Of a stretch of 64,000 nt of DNA, positions 901 to 36,960 are shown in pieces (positions within the stretch are counted from its first letter, which is position 1; each line of letters begins with the position of its first letter). The stretch comes from the human T2T-CHM13v2.0 reference genome, Homo sapiens. The notes beneath the pieces are model-generated. The model made no database searches. It was not told the DNA's origin and worked only from the letters and a program-made list of their open reading frames with translations. A program made the position numbers and the translations under genes. Location of the stretch: NCBI RefSeq assembly GCF_009914755.1, contig NC_060928.1; one strand, 5' to 3'.

Positions 901-3006
901 TCTTTGATTCTTGTGTATTTCCACACTAGCCTTAACCAATTAAAACCATGCTGTAAGGAATATTCTGCGATATACATTCGTTTCTATTTAAATATATGGT
1001 CAATATATTTTTAAAATATATTTTAGTGGTTGTATAGTGTTCTAGTATGGCACTTCCTTTAATCTCTTGTTGGTATATATTACATGGTTTCCAGACATTT
1101 TTTAATTAAAAGCAATGCTACAATTAGGTCATCATTGATATATGTATTTGAAATTGCTGCATCTAAAGCTATTAAGAGTTAAATTGTGAGCATACTCTCA
1201 AATTAAGCCTCAAAATGTACAAATTTGCTCTTGTTCCAACAGTGCATTTGTTATATATACATTCTCTGGTAATTTAAAATATCATTTTGTGTCCCAACAT
1301 ATATGATGATTTTTTAATTGTTTTGGACTTGCGGTATATTTCCATTGATCTTTACTAAGATTTTCACCAGTGCCATACAATCTTATTTACTGAATTTTAT
1401 AGCATTTTGATATCCACTTAGGCATATCCCCTCCTATTAGTCTTTCTTTCCAAAAGCTTCATGGCTATTCTCACACTTCTATTCTCCCAATAAAAGTTGG
1501 GCATTTCTAAGACTGTATAAGTTCTCCTGCACTTACAACTACCAATTAATATTTGTATTTACCTGTATTAAATTTACATATTTTGGACATCATTACAAAA
1601 TGAAATCTCTCCATTTGGAAACAAGATATTTATCTCTCCAATTATTTTACTTGTTTTAACATCCCTGAATAATATGTATAATTTTCTTCATTTCGGCCTT
1701 GGACACTTAACAGAATCCTCTCTAGCAACATAGTTGTTTACACATATGCCATTTTTATTATATTTTCTAACTGGGTATTAGTAGCCAGCTTTTGATATTG
1801 CCTGTTTAATTTTAGATTAAAGATTGGTTGTGTGGATCTACCACTCAACCAAAGTGTACTATTTATTCATTAATTCATTTAGGCTTCCATATTTTGCATT
1901 ATAAGATTTCTGTGTTATTTTAGTTTGAGATACAATGCTTTTCAAACCATAAGCACAACAGAAACAATTTTCACTTCGAAAGAAACACATCTTCAGCCAA
2001 ATCATTTACCCGAGGCCTTTTCTCGCACCTGGTACTCAATTGACCCTCCTGTATCTGTGCACTCCATCCACCTGAAAGGCCTTTCCTTCACTTTTTCATT
2101 TCAGTCTGCCAACAATCTGTCCATCCTTCAATTTCTATCTCTTCCAAAACTACTTTTCTGATAATCTTAACATCATTTTAGTTTTTCCTCCACAGAAACC
2201 TCCTCCTACATTGACAGCTCCAATAGCATTTTTTTGTGTGTGTGCAAATCATTTGATGTGAACTGTTAAGACTGTATATGAATTGGAAGTGGGAACTATC
2301 ATTTTGTCATCTTTATATCTTCTGCAGCATGTAGTGCTGCTTCTTCATATGTTGTTGAAGAGCTCAATATATATGCTTTTATTCAATCGAATATATCAAG
2401 TCTGGAGCCTAGAATCTTAGCTAAGGGGTTTCATTTTCTATTCATTGCATTGCTCTGTATTAATAATGGATGGACTAAAGTTTGGTGGGCCATCCGTCAC
2501 TGATGGGGTCAACAGAACATGGGGGAATTGGCTTCTTATGTGCTTATAAAACATGCTATTTCATTTCTTCCTGACGAATAGTACTGCCACTTTGCCCTAA
2601 ACATGCACCATCCCACAGCCCCACAGAAACAACAGAATTCTGAAAAAAACCGTAACTGATCTATAGAACTGGAGTTGTAATTTCTTTCTTTTCTGGCTGT
2701 TAGAATGTCCTACTTTGGGAAAAAAAGTGTTCATTTTATTTTTATAATTTAATTTTATATTTTATAGGTACATAATGTTACTTTATATTACAGTTTTAAC
2801 TAGCATGTACCTTTAAGTTCAATTATGAAACTTACAAAATCCATTTATATTAAAAGCTATAACAGGGTGTCATTTTTCACAAAGGCTCCTTATTAAATGA
2901 CTTCTTTACTGAAATGACTTTTTCTTCCTCCTTAGGGATGGAGAAGCTCAGCTATTTTTTCCATTAAAGATGAGATTAACTTAAAATAAATTAAAGAGAA
3001 GTATTC

Positions 3007-3388
3007 TTTTTTATTATTATTATTATACTCTAAGTTTTAGGGTACATGTGCACAATGTGCAGGTTAGTTACATATGTATACATGTGCCATGCTGGTGTGC
3101 TGCACCCACTAACTTGTCATCTAGCATTAGGTATATCTCCCAATGCTATCCCTCCCCCCTCCCCCCGCCCCACAACAGTCCCCAGAGTGTGATGTTCCCC
3201 TTCCTGTGTCCATGTGTTCTCATTGTTCAATTCCCACCTATGAGTGAGAATATGCGGTGTTTGGTTTTTTGTTCTTGCGATAGTTTACTGAGAATGATGA
3301 TTTCCAATTTCATCCATGTCCCTACAAAGGACATGAACTCATCATTTTTTATGGTTGCATAGTATTCCATGGTGTATATGTGCCACAT
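3007..3388 (-). mobile_element. 5'-truncated young L1 3' end (L1PA2/L1PA3-like)
   Basis: T/(TTA)n tail followed by near-consensus antisense L1 3'UTR and ORF2 end; minus ORF contains HIYTMEYYATIKNDEFMSFVGTWMKLEIIILSKLSQEQKTKHRIFSLIGGN. Confidence 0.95.
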
Positions 3389-5454
3389 AAAGAACAGACA
3401 CACAAAATACTGACCTATTCCTATGTCTAATATTTGAAATCCCTCTACCTTTTGATCTGCACTTTTACTCAAAAACAGAAAGAATTTTCGATCTGAAATG
3501 ATAGGCACTTTGAAGTCCAGAAGAAACTAAATGCCTTTTACCACTCTCCATTGCAATATGTCTGCATTTATAACCACCTAAATAAAAAAAAAAAAACAGT
3601 GACACAAAACTAGTATACAAACTACTAGGCCTGGACTCAAGCAAATGCGACATGCAGTGTTATAAACCCTGGATAATGTTAAAGCCTGTGTCTTCTTAAT
3701 TAAAGAGTACAGTACCATTAGAAAAAAGTTTATCTGATATCTAAAGAGTATTTCAAACTGGTTTTATTTCTCGTAACCTTTTGTTACAAAACAGCATCTT
3801 GGCTAAGACACTGAAAAAACTAGGCATACATCTCTGTGAAGCCACACACAATGCCTATAAAGCCACAGTCTTTATGGTGTGTGAACCTCAAGTCTCAGAA
3901 AGTAGTTCCTATTATACCATAGTATTGTGGAACTTCTCTGCAAAAACCACAGCTCTCATATTAGTTGGACATTCACTGAGGTAGGCCTAGATGCTTGGGT
4001 ACCACTGAGTTTTCTGTTTGCCAATATGTCATATATATTCCAGTAATTCCCAGTTGTTGTACTGATGTAGCCTTTCTTCAGGAATTTTCATTTGATAATA
4101 GTGTGAAACATGCTAAACTAGGCACTTTGAACTAATTCATAGCCTTATGATATTCAGGAAGCTTTGATAATCCTCTTGTCCCCATGGGCAATGTCTGTTC
4201 ACTTTGTGGCTTGCTGCTTAACCAAACCCAAATGAAGTTATCAACATAAAATGCCATGAGAACATTTGTTTTATCAGAAGCCTTTCCTAACATAAGGTTA
4301 CTGTTCTTACTCATTTGTTCTTCTGTTCTATTAGATTGGCTTATTGATTTTTAAAAAACAAATTTATTTTTTGTGAACCACTTCAAGGAGGCTATTCAAA
4401 CACAGTATCTGTAACCATTTCCTTAATGGCTTATGCTACTTTTCCTTTTTCTAACAAACATTTTCTCCATCTTCCCCTCCTCTTCCTTCTTCCTTTTTGC
4501 AAAATAGAGGACAAGATTTAGGGAAGCTTTTAAAAAATACCTGATTTTGGTTTTAGAAAATTTTTATTAAGCCTCCTTTCAATGCCAGGGAGCAAGGCAT
4601 TGGTTTGTTATCTATGAAAATAATAGTTGGACCACAAGTGTGTCATTTGATTGTCAATAATAATAATAATAAATTATTGAATCTGGTTGTGATAGACATC
4701 TTGGAGAGTAGTTAATATAGAGTATGGTTAGTGCAATTTTTGAGTTTTTACAGGCTTCTAAAAGGGTAAAGAGGAAAAAAGCAAGTAGCTTGCCATTTGT
4801 TTATCAAGGACTTATGCCTTTTAATTCAAAGATAATTAATTAGACTTTGATTTAGAAATAGATTGGAACCTTAAATTATCGTTGACTATTGCTGCTCTCA
4901 GGCACATTTCAAACTATCAGCCACCTCATGCCTTGGCTCCCAAGTGAGAATAAATCACATAAAGACAACTTCAAGGATAAGAAATATTTACCATTGGCCA
5001 GGATGAGAGACTTGGGATTTGTGGGCTTAAGACCCATAGTCAGCTCAGGAAGCAGCATATCTTAGCCTAATGTTGGTAACACCTGGATTTCAGTACATCT
5101 GACTCCCACCCAAGGAGGCTGCTGAATACACAGCTTTTCTGTGACAAACTTTCTCTAAATCAGAATAACAGTGCTTATTCATCCAGAAGGGAAATTATTA
5201 AAAGTTGTCACAAGGAAAACAAACATTTCCCAAGTGTCCTAAATGAACCAGAAAGCATTCAAGATAGTTTTACTCGTTAGTCCAATTTATTAATCGTTAA
5301 TTGAGCACTTACTGTATTCAAGGTAATACGCGTACTGCTTTTAGGAGAAATAAATGAGTGGAACTGAAATGTTGCCATCAAAGGGGTCGCAGTTAAATGG
5401 GAGTCATGTTTTCTAAGCAATTACTGTGTGTGACACTGTTTTGTCTTTTGCATG

Positions 5455-8600: not shown

Positions 8601-9692
8601 CTATGGTTTGAATATTTAGGAATTACCTGTAAGAATCAGAAGTGGGAAAGTTAAAGTAACTGTGAAAAAGTTTCAGAAATGAGAAATCCCCAATTTCTTT
8701 CATCAATTTCTTTCATTTTATTCTGTCTTTGTCCTATCACCACCACTCTCCTGGAGGGGAGAGGAAGCAACAACAACCAAACAGCAAACAAGCTTGGACG
8801 TAAGATACTCTTAACTTTGTTTCAGATGAACATTCACTTTAGGAAAGTCGTGTTAGCCTGCACAGCTTGGCATGATAATTAAATAGAAAATGAGAAAGGC
8901 TGCAGTGGATGTCAGCTCACTCACTCATAGCCTTCCAGCCAGTCTCCACAGTCCCCACTGGGAAATCTGTCATGACCCTGTCATGCTCCCCAGATAGATG
9001 TTTGCTTAGAGAAAACCAAACATCTGATAAGGGAAGATCAGTAGAATCTGGTTTTATGTTCCCTAGGGTCAACCCAGAGTGAAATATAAGAAGTAAACAT
9101 GATTTCCTTAGGATTTCAGCTATGATCATTTAAAAATTTTCTGTTTAGCAGGATTCTAAACATACAGCCCCAAGTAACTGGCCCGTTGTTTGTCACACTT
9201 GTGTCATAGCGTGCAGGCGTGTAATGAGGCTTCACAGATGTGCTGCCAAAGATGAATGACCAGGTGGAATGTTGGGATGAACTCTTCATGCAACATAATT
9301 TGAACTGTACTATGAATTAAGAAAAGGAAATAGCAAGAAATATAGCATAACTTAAAGGTGTTACCTGATAAACTTCGAGCTTTCTCAGTATACAGATCAC
9401 TCTCTGGGCAATAAATAATGCTAAAGGACAATTAAATATATTAGGGTGAAAACTAGATGCATTTATAAACTCCAGGGGATACTGAGGTATTTTGTGGCTT
9501 TTAATCAAGTGTGTCTCCAAATATTCTATTAAGAAAATGTGTAAAAAACAGAAAAATAAGTGAGAATCTATTTGGTGGAAATTCTGATAACAGCATAGAC
9601 ATATGGTAAGACTTGAGATACAGCCAGAAATCATTCTCTCATAAAAAACAATAAGATGAACATAGCTAGTATTTTCACATCTAAAACTATCC

Positions 9693-10668
9693 TAGGTCAT
9701 CTCTCCACACTTAATTATTTCCTTTGCTGTGCAGAACCTGTTTAGTTTGATGTGATTCTGTTTGTCTATTTATGCTTATGTTGCCTGTGTTTTGGGGGTC
9801 AAATCCAAAAAAGTCATTGCCCAAATCAATGTCATGTAGTTTTCCCCTGGCAGTTTACAGTTTCTGGTTTTACATTTAAGTATTTATAATCCACTTTGAG
9901 TTGATTTTTGTATATAGTATGAGATATTTCATTCTTCTGCATGTAGCTGCATCCAGTTTTCCCAAAACCATTTATTGAAATGACTGTTCTTTTCCCATTA
10001 TGTATTCTTGGCAGCTTTGTTGAAAATCAATTGACCATACTTGCATGGGTTCACTTCTGGGCTATCTGTTCTGTTCCATTCGTTGATACCTTTCTTTTTC
10101 TTGCCAGTGCCGTGCTGTTTAATTACCACAGATTTGTAGTATAATTTGAAGTCAGGTAGTGTGATACTTTTACTTTGTTCTTTTTGTACAATATTGCCTT
10201 GGCTATTTGGGGTTCTTTGTGTTTTCATGTTAACTTTAGGATCGTTTTTTCTACTCCTATGAAAAATGACAATAATTTTGATAGGAATGGTATTGAATCT
10301 GTAAATTGCTTTGAATAGTATGGACATTTTAACAATATTAATTATTTAAACCCGTGAACGTGGGATGTCTCAATTTATTTGTCTTCCTCAGTTGTTTTTG
10401 TGAATCTTTGATAGTTTTCAGTATATAGGTCTTTCACCTTTTTGATTAAATTTATTCCTAAGTCTTTTCTTATAGCTATTGTAGTTAGGATTCTTCCCTT
10501 GATTTCTCTTTTGGATAGTTCATTGAATAAACGTATTCATTGGCTAGTTCCTTTTTGGATAGTTTATTCTATAAATACATTTGTATAGAAATGCTACAGA
10601 TTTTTGTGTGTTGATATTGTATCCTGCAACTTTACTGTATTTGTTTATTGGTTCTAACAGAGAGTCTT
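9693..10668 (-). mobile_element. L1MA-type ORF2 segment, antisense (inverted part of a composite L1)
   Basis: Minus ORF 9998-10327 (KAIYRFNTIPIKI...ITLPDFKLYYK...YGQLIFNKAAKN) is L1 ORF2; typical antisense L1 text such as tttcctttgctgtgcagaa and ttgtatcctgcaactttactg. Confidence 0.9.
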
Positions 10669-11061
10669 TACTCTAAAGACCTTATTATTGAAACTGCAAA
10701 CATGTAATATACTAACACCTGAGCCCTCTTAATTACACTCATTGCCACCTCACTAAAAGCTGTCCACAGTACTAGAATTATTGTCTTTGCATTCTTAGGA
10801 CAACCTAGCTTCACAATCCTATTCATCATCAATGAAAATCATCCCCCTTCTAATCAACTCAATTAAATGTTTAGCAGTCAGTAGTATTCCTGCCCGATCT
10901 CTTATCTCCAGCAACATTACTGTCATATCTATTCCCCAGATATGCCCTTATACCTAAAATTCACAGCTCTTGTCATAACTCATCTAGAATTTACAGAGGC
11001 AATAGAACTTAACCTTATAACAAATAATCTCAAATTTGAGTCCCCCTCACGTGCACATAAA
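10669..11061 (+). pseudogene. Nuclear mitochondrial insertion (NUMT): MT-ND5 fragment, about codons 390-521
   Basis: Mitochondrial-code translation from 10669: [66 protein letters not shown]...; after a ~4-nt deletion near 10940: MPLYLKFTALVMT...ELNLMTNNLKFESPS. TGA sits at the conserved Trp; a stop and a frameshift show decay. Confidence 0.93.
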
Positions 11062-11145
11062 GTAGGATTGCCAGCAATGGACTGATAATTACAAACTTCC
11101 ACTGTGACAAATAATTCTGTGTTTTGTTTGTTGTAAGGTAACAGA
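11059..11145 (+). repeat. Dispersed direct repeat, copy 1 (matches 12737-12829)
   Basis: aaagtaggattgccagcaatggactgataattacaaacttccactgtgacaaataattc...gtttgttgtaaggtaacaga; 4 mismatches to copy 2 over the first 59 nt. Confidence 0.92.
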
Positions 11146-11541
11146 AATAAGCCAAGCACCAAAAGACAAATACTGCATGTTCTCACATGTGGAGAGAGTA
11201 GAATAGTGGTTATGCAGGATGTGGGTTGGGGAAAAGGGCAGCTGATGGTCACATGATGATCACAAGGTACAAAATCTCAGACAGGAGGAATCTGTGGTGG
11301 TTTTTTTTTTAGCTCTATTACCCAACGTGGTAAATATAGTTAATAATAGAGTATTGTACATTCCAAATTTTCTAAGAGACTAAATTTCAAATGCTCTCAC
11401 CACAACCAATGTCAAGTATTTGAGGTGATGGATATGTTAACTAGTTTAATTTAATTATTCCACATTGTATTAATAATTCATAATACCACTTTGTGCCTTA
11501 TAAATTTACATAATTATATATTATCTATTTATAATTAAAAA
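11144..11541 (+). mobile_element. L1MA-type 3' end (ORF2 terminus, 3'UTR, short A tail), sense
   Basis: gaaataagccaagcaccaaaagacaaatactgcatgttctcac ... atgctctcaccacaa ... tgaggtgatggatatgttaactag ... aattaaaaa. Confidence 0.88.
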
Positions 11542-12736
11542 CTACAGCCATCATAGATTTTTACTTTATTTATACAAATAACATTCAAAAAAACTTAGAG
11601 TAGATTTTATGATCTTTATTTTACAGAATAGGAAACTTCAGCTTATATTAAGTAAGTTGCTCAAAGCCATACAGTCAATATGTTGCATAGTTGAAATGTA
11701 AACATGACTGAGTCCAGAGCTTTCTTCCTGAGCCTCTAAATTCTACTGCCTTAGTCACTAAACTTTCCTGCCTGAAGTATTTTTATAGGAATAGAAGATC
11801 AGTAAATAAACTATTTTATGATGTGGAAATTCCAGGAAATGCTAAATTTTCCTCTAATGGTGGAAAATAGTCATTTTGCATTACTTTCATAAGTTTTTGA
11901 GTTCCCTGGCTCTTTTTCACATTATGAAAAAATCCCCAGAGTCACATATAATATAACTCATTTCGGGGTTGTTAATGTTATGAAATGTTGAGTTTTATAA
12001 ATGGAAACAAAAGTAATATTATCTTTTGCATATAAAACATTTCTACATAGTCTATGAAATAGAAAAGACAATCATATTATAGTTGGTCCTTTTTTTAAAT
12101 GGCAAAATTGAGTGAGAGGGCTCATTGACTTCCCTAATCCTAACTAGCTACTGAATTTCAGACCAATGCTCTGTTAAAAAGTGATATTCCAATTATTATT
12201 AATCATTTAACACTGAAAGGTTTTAACAACATAGCTTTTTACCTGGTATTAATTATTATTGTTGTGTTAATTGAACCCAGTACCTGGCGTAGGGTGGGTG
12301 TTCAGTAAATACTTATTGTCTCAAGGAGAAAAAGAATGTATTATTAAATGAATTTAAATAATAAATATTCCTATTTAGAAATATTTAAATACTTTCTCTG
12401 CTTCTTTTCCATGTAATAATCTTGTTTTATGTCAAAAAACCTAACTGAGTGGAGACAATTGAACTGAAACAACTATTTGTTTATTCTTCTATTCTTCAGT
12501 TATGGAGGGCAGCATTTAGCTATTAGCCGCTTTCACTCCTTTTACTTTAATCATTTCCCTCTCAAAATCATAAACATGTTTGTAAACAACCTGCCTAAAT
12601 ACTATAAAATTTCTGCCACATTGGATAAAAAGCAGAGAGAGGAGTTGTAATGTTCATAATACCTCCTACCTTTTCATCAGTTTAATCACTAGAGCAGTGC
12701 AAGTTTATCTCATGTCATCACTAGCTTCTTAGATTG

Positions 12737-12829
12737 AAAGTAAGATTGCCAGCAATGGACTGATAATAACAACCTTCCACTGTGCCAAATAATTCCATGG
12801 TCTCCAATAGTTTGTTGTGCAGTAACAGA
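12737..12829 (+). repeat. Dispersed direct repeat, copy 2 (putative donor of 11059-11145)
   Basis: aaagtaagattgccagcaatggactgataataacaaccttccactgtgccaaataattc...gtttgttgtgcagtaacaga. Confidence 0.92.
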
Positions 12830-12899
12830 TTTTTGCCAGTAATGTTATATGGCCCTAAATCTAATACATTTTAAACTGTAGCTCTTGTGTTATGTCTTA

Positions 12900-13217
<318 letters not shown>

Positions 13218-13689
13218 CTGAAACATTTAGGTGCAGTGTGCTCATTGTAACCTACAAGCCAAACTAATAAACATGGCTTCCCAATTGCTTAACAAAAGAG
13301 AGAGAGGGACTGGGGGAAAAAAATCTGCTTTATTCTAAAGCCATTTTCAGAGATGTCAGTGGAAAAATTCTCCAAAATCCTTAGAAGGAAGAACTGACTT
13401 CACAAGTAGTTTCTTCTATGATAGGAGAGTTCATCTAAGCTTGTTTTAAATAAATCATATAAGCAGATTTGGAGATAACATTTAGATTGTCATTAAACAC
13501 ATTTAGCTAACTCTTTTTTCCTTTTATTCAGACTGAGAGCAATGATATAAATTATTTAACTTCATCAGATCTCCAGTTAAAGATGAGTTGTTCATGTAAG
13601 TCTAGACTATCTAAATTATGCCCATCATAAAGGCTTACTGCTTTTTATATTTCCTCTGGTCTTGAAGCCATTACAGTTCATTAGAGAGA

Positions 13690-13945
13690 TTGTAGAATAT
13701 GGTGGTTAGAGCATGGAATGTGCAGGCAGACTTCTTTGGTTCAAAACTTTGCTCTGCCTCTTTCTAGTTATTTGTCCAGAGACAGTTCTCTCTGTGTCTG
13801 TTTCCTCATCTGTAAAATGGCAGTGCTAATAATAAAATCACCACCTTCATAAGATTATTGCAAGGACTAAATGAGTTAATGCATTAAAAGTGGTTTTATT
13901 AGTGGCTAGCAATAACACTCAATGTTAGCTGGAATTATTATCATT
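13690..13945 (+). mobile_element. MIR SINE
   Basis: tctgtttcctcatctgtaaaatgg ... aggactaaatgagttaat. Confidence 0.75.
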
Positions 13946-31221: not shown

Positions 31222-33195
31222 CAGTCGTCCTAAATGTGTAGGTTCACAAGCCCTTTAGGAACTGTTGTTGATCCCCTGGACAGCTAATCCAGACCACTCT
31301 TAACGGCACAGTTGGCTCTCATGGAGACCATAAGTTATTTTCCATCTTTCTGGGTCAGGATTTTATGTAATCTGTTAACTGTGAATCTAGTCATTGATTC
31401 TGTACTGGACCTGCCTAAGTGAGTGGCTGTAAGTATGCATGTCTGCATGCTCTAGTTTTGAAAGAAATGGGAAGTAATTCTAAAACAGGAGGCCTAAAAC
31501 AGCTGGAAAAAGTTGTACATCGTTTTCTCATACTTTCTGGTTAGGCTTTCACCAGCAGTAGCAATCATCAGTAGCTTTTTGGCAATTTACTTTCTTCTCT
31601 CCTGAACTACTAGCCTAGTGAATCTCCATGAAACCCTTTCATTTTTCTGATTCTAGAATGCTTTGTTACAGAAAGCAACAGCAAGAGGGAAGTACAGCTT
31701 AGGGAGTAAATGTGGTAAACTGGGGCGTGGAGGTATACAGACTTTCAGGGCCTGACATTTTTAAATACATTGCCAAAGCTGACCAAGCATATTTCCTTTC
31801 CAGCATTAATAATTACTTGGCACTGAAGAAATGCATGCTGATAGAGCACTTTATGGTATGATATTTTATTATCTCTGTCTTGAAAAATTGTAGCCACTGA
31901 TAATCTAATAGAGAGAAGAAACTCACTTCATTAATTTATTATAGCCCAGAATCCTGGGCAGGGCGTTTGATTACGGAGAATATTCCTTTATTTCTGCCAA
32001 ATTAAAAAGCTGGCACAACACAGTAGATGATGTAAAGCTTTTGGCTAAATGCCTTCCAGATTCCATTTTCCAAAAGATCTACCAAGAATTTGCAGTTTAA
32101 GCTTTTCTTACCAATTTTATATTTGCTTGGTTTCTCCTGATTTATTTTTACTTTAATAACAAGCTCACACTGGCTCTATTAGATATTGTTGTCTTTGTCT
32201 ACATGGTGCCATACAGTCAGAGGCCTAGGCCCTGACCCTGTCAGTACTGCTAATCCTTGAGTCTGTGACCTTGTGCATAGCACCTCATCGCACTGGGCTT
32301 CTGTTTCTTTATCTGTGAGATGGAGCATTTGGACTAAGGTCTCCTCCAGGCTTAATATCTTATGATTCATTTTGGATTAAAAGTTGAGGAAAAATAAGTA
32401 TGACGTATTTTTTTCAGAGACTTTAACAAAAGGAACATATCTAAGTTTTGTTAAATTCCAATTAAAGAATGAGTTATCTGATCCAGTCTTCAGTTTGCAG
32501 TGTACAGTATTTAGAGCCCAGGAGCTATTATGATGGATGCTACAGAAATGCTTATTGTATTCACAGACTATTCCTGATGGAAACAAAACATCTGGAGGAT
32601 TTCTGCAAGGCGAGGATTCACTCATAAATGACCCTTTTGCTTTTGGACAGGGTTGTACATTATTTTGTCTGCCCTACTTTGAGAGAGTTTCACCATCTGT
32701 CTAATGTTAGCAATTATTTGTTTTCCTAATTAATTGATAGAATCTGTTTTTTTAAAAAATATAATTGCATCATGTCAATTTAAGAAAAAGGAAGTGGCTA
32801 CATGCTGTTGTACATGGTGCATGAAAATGGAATCAGAAAAGCAGTATGTTAGGGCTGATAGGGGCCTTAGAGATCAATTATTCCAACTCCCTCATTTTGT
32901 AGATGAGGAAAAACACTCAGCTCATTGTTAGCAAAGCAGGAAACCTGTATCTTTTGATTCCTATCGTATCTTTCTCATTCATGGTAGTACATTTCTTGTG
33001 ATATTTAAAATTCTTCAATTTCAAAATGAGAGTGAAACTAGAAAAATCACTTTATTGCACAGAGAAGTTTCATGGGGTCACAGCTGAGAAGCCAATCATT
33101 TTACAAGGTTTATAACAACAACAAAAAAAGTTGTCTCTTTTTTTATCCCAACTTTTGAATTCTTATTGTCATAATTTACTTTTTGATATTGCCTC

Positions 33196-36960
<3,765 letters not shown>

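What the first reader, a model, noticed from the sequence alone, without database searches (positions are those of the whole stretch)
9683..11544. Composite insertion: inverted L1 whose junction holds a mitochondrial ND5 piece and a copy of nearby DNA
Seen: four abutting modules - antisense L1MA ORF2 (9693-10668), ND5 NUMT (10669-11061), local copy (11059-11145) and sense L1MA 3' end with A tail (11144-11541). Junctions share 2-4 nt microhomologies (ttta, aaa, ga). aaaacta occurs on both flanks (9683-9689, after ct, resembling an L1 endonuclease TT/AAAA site; and 11538-11544). Established: antisense-internal plus sense-3' geometry is the twin-priming signature, and L1 RT can switch templates (U6-L1 chimeras). 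Inference: a single event. The L1 3' end, the local copy (BANK1 pre-mRNA sense) and ND5 (mRNA sense) are all on the same strand, as expected if RT moved from L1 RNA to local template to ND5 mRNA, giving an RNA-templated, L1-mediated NUMT. Templated end-joining at the junction is an alternative, and orientation alone is weak evidence.
Basis: partly seen in the sequence, partly recalled or inferred. Interest (0 to 1): 0.82.

Follow-up and report, generated by a model that had tools for sequence, protein, structure and literature searches.

The report
Inverted L1 with mitochondrial and local filler
An ancient L1 retrotransposon insertion in a BANK1 intron has its two oppositely oriented halves joined through a piece of the mitochondrial ND5 gene and an 87-base copy of nearby DNA, so it probably records one messy integration event, but it cannot show whether RNA or DNA was copied.

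Summary
All four modules are real and lie within a few bases of the stated borders.
- **Antisense L1 ORF2:** 9690-10667, about ORF2p aa 714-1033.
- **ND5 NUMT:** 10666-11061.
- **Local copy:** 11059-11145. It copies unique DNA at 12737-12829. These are the only two places in the genome that match.
- **Sense L1 3' end:** 11144-11535, with a 5-6 A tail.

Only the outer borders carry a 7-nt direct repeat, AAAACTA (chance P about 0.011), at a CT/AAAA site. The antisense arm has no 3' end of its own. Private decay is alike in both L1 arms and the NUMT (8-11%). The local copy looks somewhat younger.

**Best reading:** one complex 5'-inverted L1 integration, older than the human-rhesus split. Its arms were bridged by captured mitochondrial sequence and a repair-type copy of proximal DNA, with 2-3 nt microhomologies at the joints.

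Its strand argument fails because either cDNA arm could have done the switching.

**Main rival:** a later break repair inside an existing L1.

**Atypical features:** a gap of about 650 nt in L1 coordinates between the arms, and the short repeat.

Extra sequence at inversion junctions and copies templated from nearby DNA both have experimental precedent. A mitochondrial filler was in none of the papers found.

The parts
9683..9689 (.). Left copy of the flanking direct repeat AAAACTA. It is preceded by CT, so the bottom strand reads TTTT/AG, close to the L1 endonuclease site.
   Evidence: Sequence. Chance P = 0.011. Inner junctions give at most 4 nt.
9690..10667 (-). Antisense L1 arm, ORF2 about aa 714-1033, with several frame breaks. 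It has no L1 3' end or poly(A) of its own to its left.
   Evidence: ORF2p matches. Genome L1 hits at 70-75%. No L1 homology in 9000-9692. Left border alignment.
10666..11061 (+). NUMT from an internal part of MT-ND5, ND5 aa about 390-521. It carries 4 stops by table 2, a +1 insertion and a -4 deletion.
   Evidence: Listed by Tsuji 2012 as hg18 chr4:103112600-103112981, mt 13500-13884, + strand, age class a.
11059..11145 (+). Copy of unique local DNA in direct orientation. It overlaps ND5 by AAA and the sense L1 arm by GA.
12737..12829 (+). Donor of the local copy. It starts 1193 nt downstream of the first base after the insertion (11544).
   Evidence: Only these two places in the genome match.
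11144..11535 (+). Sense L1 arm: the last ~25 codons of ORF2 (estimated from L038 spacing; no PDB match) and the 3' UTR. It has a deletion of about 30 nt near 11186-11193 relative to other copies.
11536..11541 (+). Remnant A-rich tail (taaaaa), merging into the right repeat copy.
   Evidence: Alignment with 28 of the 29 held L1 3' ends.
11538..11544 (.). Right copy of AAAACTA.

Best explanation
The locus records one complex L1 integration in the primate germ line, older than the human-rhesus split.

Proposed sequence of events:
1. L1 endonuclease nicked the bottom strand at TTTT/AG (CT/AAAA on the top strand).
2. Target-primed reverse transcription copied only about 400 nt of the L1 3' end.
3. 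The opposite end acquired an antisense L1 ORF2 segment, either by twin priming on L1 RNA or by capture of an L1 cDNA.
4. The two ends were not joined directly. Repair-type synthesis and capture bridged them with a fragment of mitochondrial DNA (ND5) and an 87-nt stretch copied from unique DNA 1.2 kb downstream.
5. Each joint formed at 2-3 nt of microhomology, as in synthesis-dependent strand annealing or alternative end joining.

Shown here: the four modules, their borders, the donor, the outer repeat, the absence of a 3' end on the antisense arm, and similar decay of the three larger modules.

Inferred: that all of this happened in one event, and that the fillers were copied from DNA rather than RNA.
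For: For a single insertion:
- The outer borders alone carry a 7-nt direct repeat (P = 0.011). Inner junctions give at most 4 nt.
- The antisense arm has no 3' end or tail of its own.
- Both arms match the same four contiguous genomic L1 copies, L031, L038, L054 and L056.
- The arms occupy non-overlapping ORF2 coordinates: aa about 714-1033, and from about aa 1250 onward.

For similar age of the modules:
- Private differences at columns conserved in relatives are 32/300 (antisense arm), 13/164 (sense arm) and 18/198 (NUMT). None of the pairwise comparisons is significant, P 0.41-0.71.
- Tsuji 2012 dates the NUMT to after the mouse split and before the rhesus split (supplement passages).

For bridging at the junction:
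- The junction is where two ends must be joined, so filler there is expected.
- In L1-expressing cells, one inverted insertion carried two extra reverse-transcribed sequences at its internal junction. Three insertions carried sequence templated from nearby genomic DNA (PMC11702581, section 7 read whole).

For a DNA template:
- Copies from donors less than 5 kb away average 162 bp, show microhomology and filler at their ends, and can be chimeras of two donors. None of 39 examined had an A tail (PMC2671141 passages).
- The donor here is unique DNA.
Against: - The arms are about 650 nt apart in L1 coordinates (L038 spacing). In experimental twin priming, 32 of 32 junctions lay within 1-10 bp.
- The repeat is 7 nt. 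5'-inverted L1s usually have 12-18 bp duplications and are not associated with short ones.
- Only CTA is distinguishable from the tail.
- Microhomology at the 5' border is at most 1-2 nt.
- The local copy differs from its donor at only 8 of 86 sites. If each lineage had decayed by 0.09, P(8 or fewer) = 0.034. The strict NUMT estimate is 4/71. The fillers could therefore be younger than the L1.
- Shared subfamily is not proven. ORF2 is too conserved to discriminate. Of 4 elements chosen by similarity to the antisense arm, only 1 had an uninterrupted 3' UTR, and it matched the sense arm at p = 0.30.
- No other species could be examined.
Confidence: 0.4

Rival explanations
1. Two steps. An ordinary 5'-inverted L1 (or two L1 pieces) was already present. 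A later double-strand break in or near its inversion junction was repaired with loss of about 650 nt or more of L1. The repair captured a mitochondrial DNA fragment and a repair-mediated copy of proximal DNA.
For: - NUMT capture and proximal repair-mediated duplications inside existing transposable elements are documented, including chimeric acceptors with two donors (PMC2671141 passages).
- The local copy looks younger than the L1 arms: 8/86 pairwise, P = 0.034 at d = 0.09 and P = 0.006 at d = 0.107.
- The strict NUMT decay of 4/71 is lower than the L1 values.
- This model accounts for the 650-nt gap, which is atypical for twin priming.
Against: - Deletions at such repair sites were 1-15 nt. 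A loss of 650 nt or more that removes the old junction, or a break exactly at it, is needed.
- At equal thresholds the NUMT decay (18/198) equals that of the L1 arms.
Confidence: 0.3
2. One reading: a single event in which L1 reverse transcriptase switched templates from L1 RNA to BANK1 pre-mRNA and then to ND5 mRNA, giving an RNA-templated NUMT. The product was then joined to a twin-primed antisense arm.
For: - Both fillers lie in the same sense as the L1 3' arm.
- The joints carry 2-3 nt microhomologies.
- Template switching and added cDNA products at inversion junctions occur in experiments.
- One paper proposes L1-mediated retrocopies of mitochondrial RNAs with A tails and duplications (PMC11727581 passages).
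Against: - Orientation has even odds and is uninformative, because either arm could have switched.
- The ND5 piece is internal, with no transcript end or A tail.
- Tsuji 2012 found no correspondence between NUMT ends and mitochondrial poly(A) sites.
- The local piece is deep intronic sequence of a gene that I recall to be expressed mainly in B cells.
- Proximal copies are known as DNA-level products.
- Two L1 chimera and insertion surveys do not mention mitochondrial partners in their main text (0 occurrences). Their supplements were not read.
Confidence: 0.2
3. Unrelated events: two independent L1 insertions of similar age, an independent NUMT and an independent small duplication that happen to abut. 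The AAAACTA repeat would be a chance match.
For: - The repeat is short and A-rich.
- Subfamily identity is unproven.
Against: - The antisense arm lacks any 3' end or tail.
- The sense arm has no repeat partner at its own 5' border (at most 4 nt).
- Four abutting borders with no intervening flank DNA would be needed.
- P = 0.011 for the outer repeat.
Confidence: 0.1

Closest known systems
5'-inverted L1 insertions by twin priming (Ostertag and Kazazian 2001, recalled, paper not held; Kojima 2010, PMC2912911; Mendez-Dorantes 2024 preprint, PMC11702581)
   Same: - An inverted internal arm is joined to a sense 3' arm with an A tail.
- The repeat lies at the outer borders only.
- The target resembles the L1 endonuclease site.
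- The inversion junction shows microhomology.
   Different: - There is a gap of about 650 nt between the arms in L1 coordinates, against a typical 1-10 bp.
- 480 nt of foreign filler sits at the junction.
- The repeat is 7 nt, against a typical 12-18 bp.
- There is little microhomology at the 5' border.
Non-canonical L1 insertions in L1-expressing cells (PMC11702581, section 7)
   Same: - One inverted insertion had two extra reverse-transcribed sequences at its internal junction.
[quoted passage not shown]
   Different: - Those are somatic events in culture.
- No mitochondrial partner is mentioned in the main text.
- Here both kinds of filler lie together in one fixed germ-line locus.
Repair-mediated duplication by capture of proximal DNA (Pace et al. 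2009, PMC2671141)
   Same: - The copy is short (87 nt) and comes from a donor less than 5 kb away.
- Its ends carry microhomology.
- It forms a chimeric acceptor with a second donor from elsewhere.
- It lies inside a transposable element.
   Different: - Their screen required both flanks of the element in the same orientation and within 30 bp in consensus coordinates, so it would not have found this locus.
- The second donor here is mitochondrial.
NUMT insertion at double-strand breaks, with L1 endonuclease proposed as the source of breaks (Tsuji et al. 2012, PMC3467031)
   Same: - A mitochondrial fragment sits next to retrotransposon sequence at an A+T-rich site.
- This NUMT is in their table.
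   Different: - They report that NUMTs tend not to lie inside retrotransposons.
- They did not describe a NUMT at an L1 inversion junction.
L1 chimeric retrocopies by template switching, such as U6/L1 and tripartite chimeras (catalogue in PMC13174262; mitochondrial RNA retrocopies proposed in PMC11727581)
   Same: Non-L1 segments lie upstream of an L1 3' end in the same sense, inside one pair of repeats.
   Different: - The partners here are an internal mitochondrial fragment and deep intronic DNA, not abundant nuclear RNAs with defined ends.
- An RNA origin is not shown.

Membership tests
5'-inverted (twin-priming) L1 insertion | Two segments of one L1 in opposite orientation, with the inverted one from further 5' in the element | tested here: met
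   The antisense arm covers ORF2p aa about 714-1033 and the sense arm starts at about aa 1250. Both match the same 4 contiguous L1 copies.
5'-inverted (twin-priming) L1 insertion | Breakpoints of the two arms adjacent in L1 coordinates (small deletion or duplication) | tested here: not met
   The gap is about 650 nt by the L038 spacing. Experiments gave 1-10 bp in 32 of 32 junctions.
5'-inverted (twin-priming) L1 insertion | Target-site duplication around the whole insertion, at an endonuclease-type site | tested here: inconclusive
   AAAACTA is 7 nt with P = 0.011 and lies at CT/AAAA. It is shorter than the usual 12-18 bp, and only CTA is separable from the tail.
5'-inverted (twin-priming) L1 insertion | Inverted arm lacks its own 3' end; sense arm ends in poly(A) | tested here: met
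   There is no L1 homology left of 9693. The L1 body ends at 11535, followed by taaaaa.
5'-inverted (twin-priming) L1 insertion | Both arms of the same subfamily and age | tested here: inconclusive
   Private decay is 32/300 against 13/164, P = 0.41. No repeat library is on hand to name subfamilies. The cross-check on 4 further elements was uninformative, because only 1 had an intact 3' UTR.
NUMT | Nuclear sequence homologous to mitochondrial DNA | tested here: met
   ND5 match at E 5.4e-11. 24 further nuclear matches to the ND5 stretch. RefSeq MTND5P5 (hub note). Tsuji table.
Repair-mediated duplication (Pace 2009) | Short copy of unique DNA from a donor within 5 kb, with microhomology, filler or deletion at the ends and no A tail | tested here: met
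   The copy is 87 nt. The donor starts 1678 nt from the copy and 1193 nt from the insertion border. It is unique in the genome. AAA and GA overlap the neighbouring modules.
L1 chimeric retrocopy by RNA template switching | The partner segment is copied from an RNA (defined RNA ends, splicing or an A tail) | not testable with these tools
   The ND5 piece is internal and the local piece is intronic. Neither carries an RNA-specific mark.

The most novel reading that the evidence does not exclude
The ND5 segment was reverse transcribed from mitochondrial RNA by L1 ORF2p during the integration, from either ND5 mRNA or the antisense transcript. The locus would then be a fixed germ-line example of an L1-made, RNA-templated NUMT, and L1 intermediates would be a regular entry point for mitochondrial sequence.
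Probability: 0.18. Interest if true: 0.75.

Novelty: new variant of a known kind. Interest (0 to 1): 0.45.

Why it matters
NUMTs are generally ascribed to end joining at random breaks. A role for L1 endonuclease breaks has been proposed from statistics only (Tsuji 2012).

If this locus was formed in one event, it is a concrete fixed case in which an L1 integration intermediate took up mitochondrial sequence and a proximal DNA copy. That would link three processes that are usually catalogued apart: L1 5' inversion, NUMT formation and repair-mediated duplication.

It also shows that screens requiring collinear transposable-element flanks miss such loci. On its own it cannot settle whether the template was RNA or DNA.

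Tried and rejected
- **Genetic code:** a code with three changes to X was not accepted. I used a shorter stretch with an allowed code instead.
- **Rfam and tandem repeats:** Rfam found nothing in 9000-13000. Tandem Repeats Finder found only an 11-nt, 2-copy unit at 11243-11264.
- **ORF2 C-terminus of the sense arm:** the 22-aa stretch found no PDB match. Its position rests on spacing in L038.
- **Mini-survey of 22 other ND5-containing nuclear loci:** none showed L1-like sequence abutting the ND5 match on both sides. The NUMT extents were unknown and my L1 references contained Alu, so this is inconclusive.
- **Subfamily cross-check:** I fetched 4 elements chosen by similarity to the antisense arm. 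In 3 of them the 3' UTR was interrupted or not reached, so the check was uninformative.
- **Dating of the local copy:** it rests on 86 sites only.
- **Literature:** no paper found joins NUMTs with L1 inversion junctions. 'MTND5P5' is in 0 papers. Ostertag and Kazazian 2001 is not held.
- **Supplements not read:** those of PMC11702581 (bioRxiv), PMC13174262 and PMC2671141 may list mitochondrial partners or this locus.
Full report
**What is there.** The window is a BANK1 intron on human chr4 (hub note; G000:C4). I read 9400-11900 and tested each module.

**Antisense L1 arm.**
- The minus-strand translation of 9998-10345 matches human ORF2p aa 810-923 (E 7.8e-21).
- 10547-10672 matches aa 716-744 (E 3.7e-4).
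- 9695-9769 matches chain residues 771-788 of 8c8j. With the +237 offset seen, this is aa 1008-1025. The match is weak (E 1.3) but collinear.
- The arm therefore covers about aa 714-1033 on the minus strand.
- Genome hits are 70-75% identical (40 of 12093 candidates scored).
- Against the held L1 loci, homology covers 9693-10520 and 10548-10641. Nothing in 9000-9692 matches. The arm has no 3' end or tail of its own.

**Sense L1 arm.**
- 11144-11541 matches L1 3' ends at 72-83% (40 of 1852 candidates scored).
- Aligned with 28 of the 29 held copies, the family ends in '...caattataaattgtcaatttacaat' plus A's.
- In the window the body ends at 11535 and is followed by taaaaa.
- Four contiguous genomic L1 copies (L031, L038, L054, L056) match both arms collinearly.
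- In L038 the two regions are about 650 nt apart. The arms do not overlap and leave that gap.

**ND5 piece.**
- Read by table 2, the frame from 10642 gives ND5 with stops.
- 10777-11061 matches ND5 aa 427-521 of the best-scoring chains (E 5.4e-11).
- It matches the 5xtc chain at E 1.1e-8 and the 6g2j chain at E 2.6e-3, out of 14 sequences matched. That the best chains are pig or cattle, 5xtc human and 6g2j mouse is recalled from the entry codes.
- The best other nuclear copy is only 74% identical (25 matches).
- Homology to these copies begins at 10667 in 11 rows and at 10663 in one row. It ends at 11049-11061.
- A +1 insertion and a -4 deletion shift the frame in the middle.
- Tsuji et al. 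2012 list it as hg18 chr4:103112600-103112981, mt 13500-13884, + strand, intron, unique, age class a. That class means after the mouse split and before the rhesus split (supplement and text passages).

**Local copy.**
- 11059-11145 copies 12737-12829 in direct orientation: 93% over the first 59 nt, and 86 aligned bases with 8 mismatches and 4 small indels overall.
- The whole genome holds only these two places. The donor is unique DNA, starting 1193 nt beyond the right border of the insertion.

**Borders.**

| Joint | Finding |
|---|---|
| Outer repeat | AAAACTA at 9683-9689 and 11538-11544. A repeat of 7 nt or more arises in 217 of 19020 random left positions, P = 0.011 |
| Inner junctions as left border | At most 4 nt |
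| Target site | Reads CT/AAAA, so the bottom strand is TTTT/AG. The consensus TT/AAAA is quoted in PMC13174262 |
| Local / sense L1 | Overlap GA |
| ND5 / local | Overlap AAA, if the ancestral mitochondrial sequence read 'ataaa' as in the older copies L021 and L006 |
| Antisense L1 / ND5 | Overlap 0-2 nt (CT), or up to 6 unassigned bases, depending on whether 'gagtct' is L1 |
| Left border of the insertion | Overlap with L1 of at most 1-2 nt |

**Ages.** I counted private differences at columns where relatives agree.

| Module | Private differences | Rate (95% interval) |
|---|---|---|
| Antisense arm | 32/300 | 0.107 (0.074-0.147) |
| Sense arm | 13/164 | 0.079 (0.043-0.132) |
| NUMT | 18/198 | 0.091 (0.055-0.140) |
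| NUMT, strict columns | 4/71 | 0.056 |

- No pairwise comparison among the three is significant (P 0.41-0.71).
- A star-type estimate gives 0.125 for the antisense arm and 0.112 for the sense arm.
- The local pair differs at 8/86 sites, about 0.05 per lineage. If each lineage had decayed by 0.09, P(8 or fewer) = 0.034.
- The three large modules are therefore of like age and older than the rhesus split. The local copy looks somewhat younger, or its donor evolves slowly.

**Mechanism.**
- The structure is that of a 5'-inverted L1, with 480 nt of foreign filler exactly where the two ends must be joined.
- Experiments give direct precedent (PMC11702581, section 7 read whole). One inverted insertion had two extra reverse-transcribed sequences at the internal junction. 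Three insertions had sequence templated from nearby genomic DNA.
- Pace et al. 2009 describe short copies from donors less than 5 kb away (mean 162 bp), with microhomology and filler, some of them chimeras of two donors. None of 39 examined had an A tail (passages). Their screen required collinear flanks within 30 bp and would miss this locus.
- Tsuji et al. proposed L1 endonuclease breaks as entry points for NUMTs (passages).
- I therefore favour one event with DNA-level bridging (0.40).
Its strand argument fails because either arm could have switched, which would call for templates of the opposite sense. Two L1 chimera and insertion surveys do not mention mitochondrial partners in their main text. 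One paper does propose mitochondrial RNA retrocopies.
- A later break repair inside an existing L1 gets 0.30. It is helped by the younger look of the local copy. It is hindered by the need for a deletion of 650 nt or more that spans the old junction, when reported deletions at such sites are 1-15 nt.

**Atypical points under any model.**
- The 650-nt gap, against 1-10 bp in 32 of 32 experimental junctions.
- The 7-nt repeat, against a typical 12-18 bp. Short duplications go with 5'-truncated rather than inverted L1s.
- Both points would fit a variant in which a short truncated L1 insertion had its 5' junction patched with three captured pieces, the antisense L1 cDNA being one of them.

**Limits.**
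- No other species could be examined and no repeat library was on hand.
- The subfamily name 'L1MA' is unverified.
- A cross-check with 4 elements chosen by the antisense arm was uninformative.
- The survey of 22 other ND5 loci was inconclusive.
- No paper found joins NUMTs with L1 inversion junctions.

Noticed in passing
window 10509-10569: The antisense L1 arm holds a partial internal duplication. 'ttttggatagttcatt' and 'ttttggatagtttatt' lie 45 nt apart. Other L1 copies skip the matching stretch, query 87-144. Tandem Repeats Finder does not report it.
   Followed up: partly
window 11186-11193 and 11299-11309: The sense L1 arm lacks about 30 nt that other copies have after 'ctcacatgtgga'. 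Hits split into query 1-43 and 50-398. It also carries an 11-nt T run.
   Followed up: no
L030, L033, L035 (G000:C8:58.80 Mb, C1:225.74 Mb, C17:6.82 Mb): Next to these L1 3' ends lie ORF2 pieces in the opposite orientation. They may be further 5'-inverted L1s of the same family.
   Followed up: no
L020 (G000:C2:155765800-155766024): This ND5 NUMT holds a short snap-back. After 'TTTACTCTAAAGACCTTATTATCGAA' comes 'GGTCTTTAGAGTAAC', the reverse complement of the start, in place of the expected bases.
   Followed up: no
L012/L018 (G000:C23:68558693-68559364): This ND5 NUMT is split in two by an insertion of about 300 nt. The insertion matches the Alu-contaminated references.
   Followed up: no
window 10777-11061: The ND5 reading scores higher against the best-scoring chains (which I recall to be pig and cattle ND5; 45.9 and 45.2 bits) than against the 5xtc chain (recalled to be human; 38.6 bits). 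This is expected if the copy predates most of the fast change of anthropoid mitochondrial DNA.
   Followed up: partly
window 2975-3391 and 33189-33567: Two further L1 3' pieces in the window are 82-85% alike (families D8, D10, D12). The long L1 at 33189-36941 is antisense and 69% identical to the antisense arm studied here.
   Followed up: no
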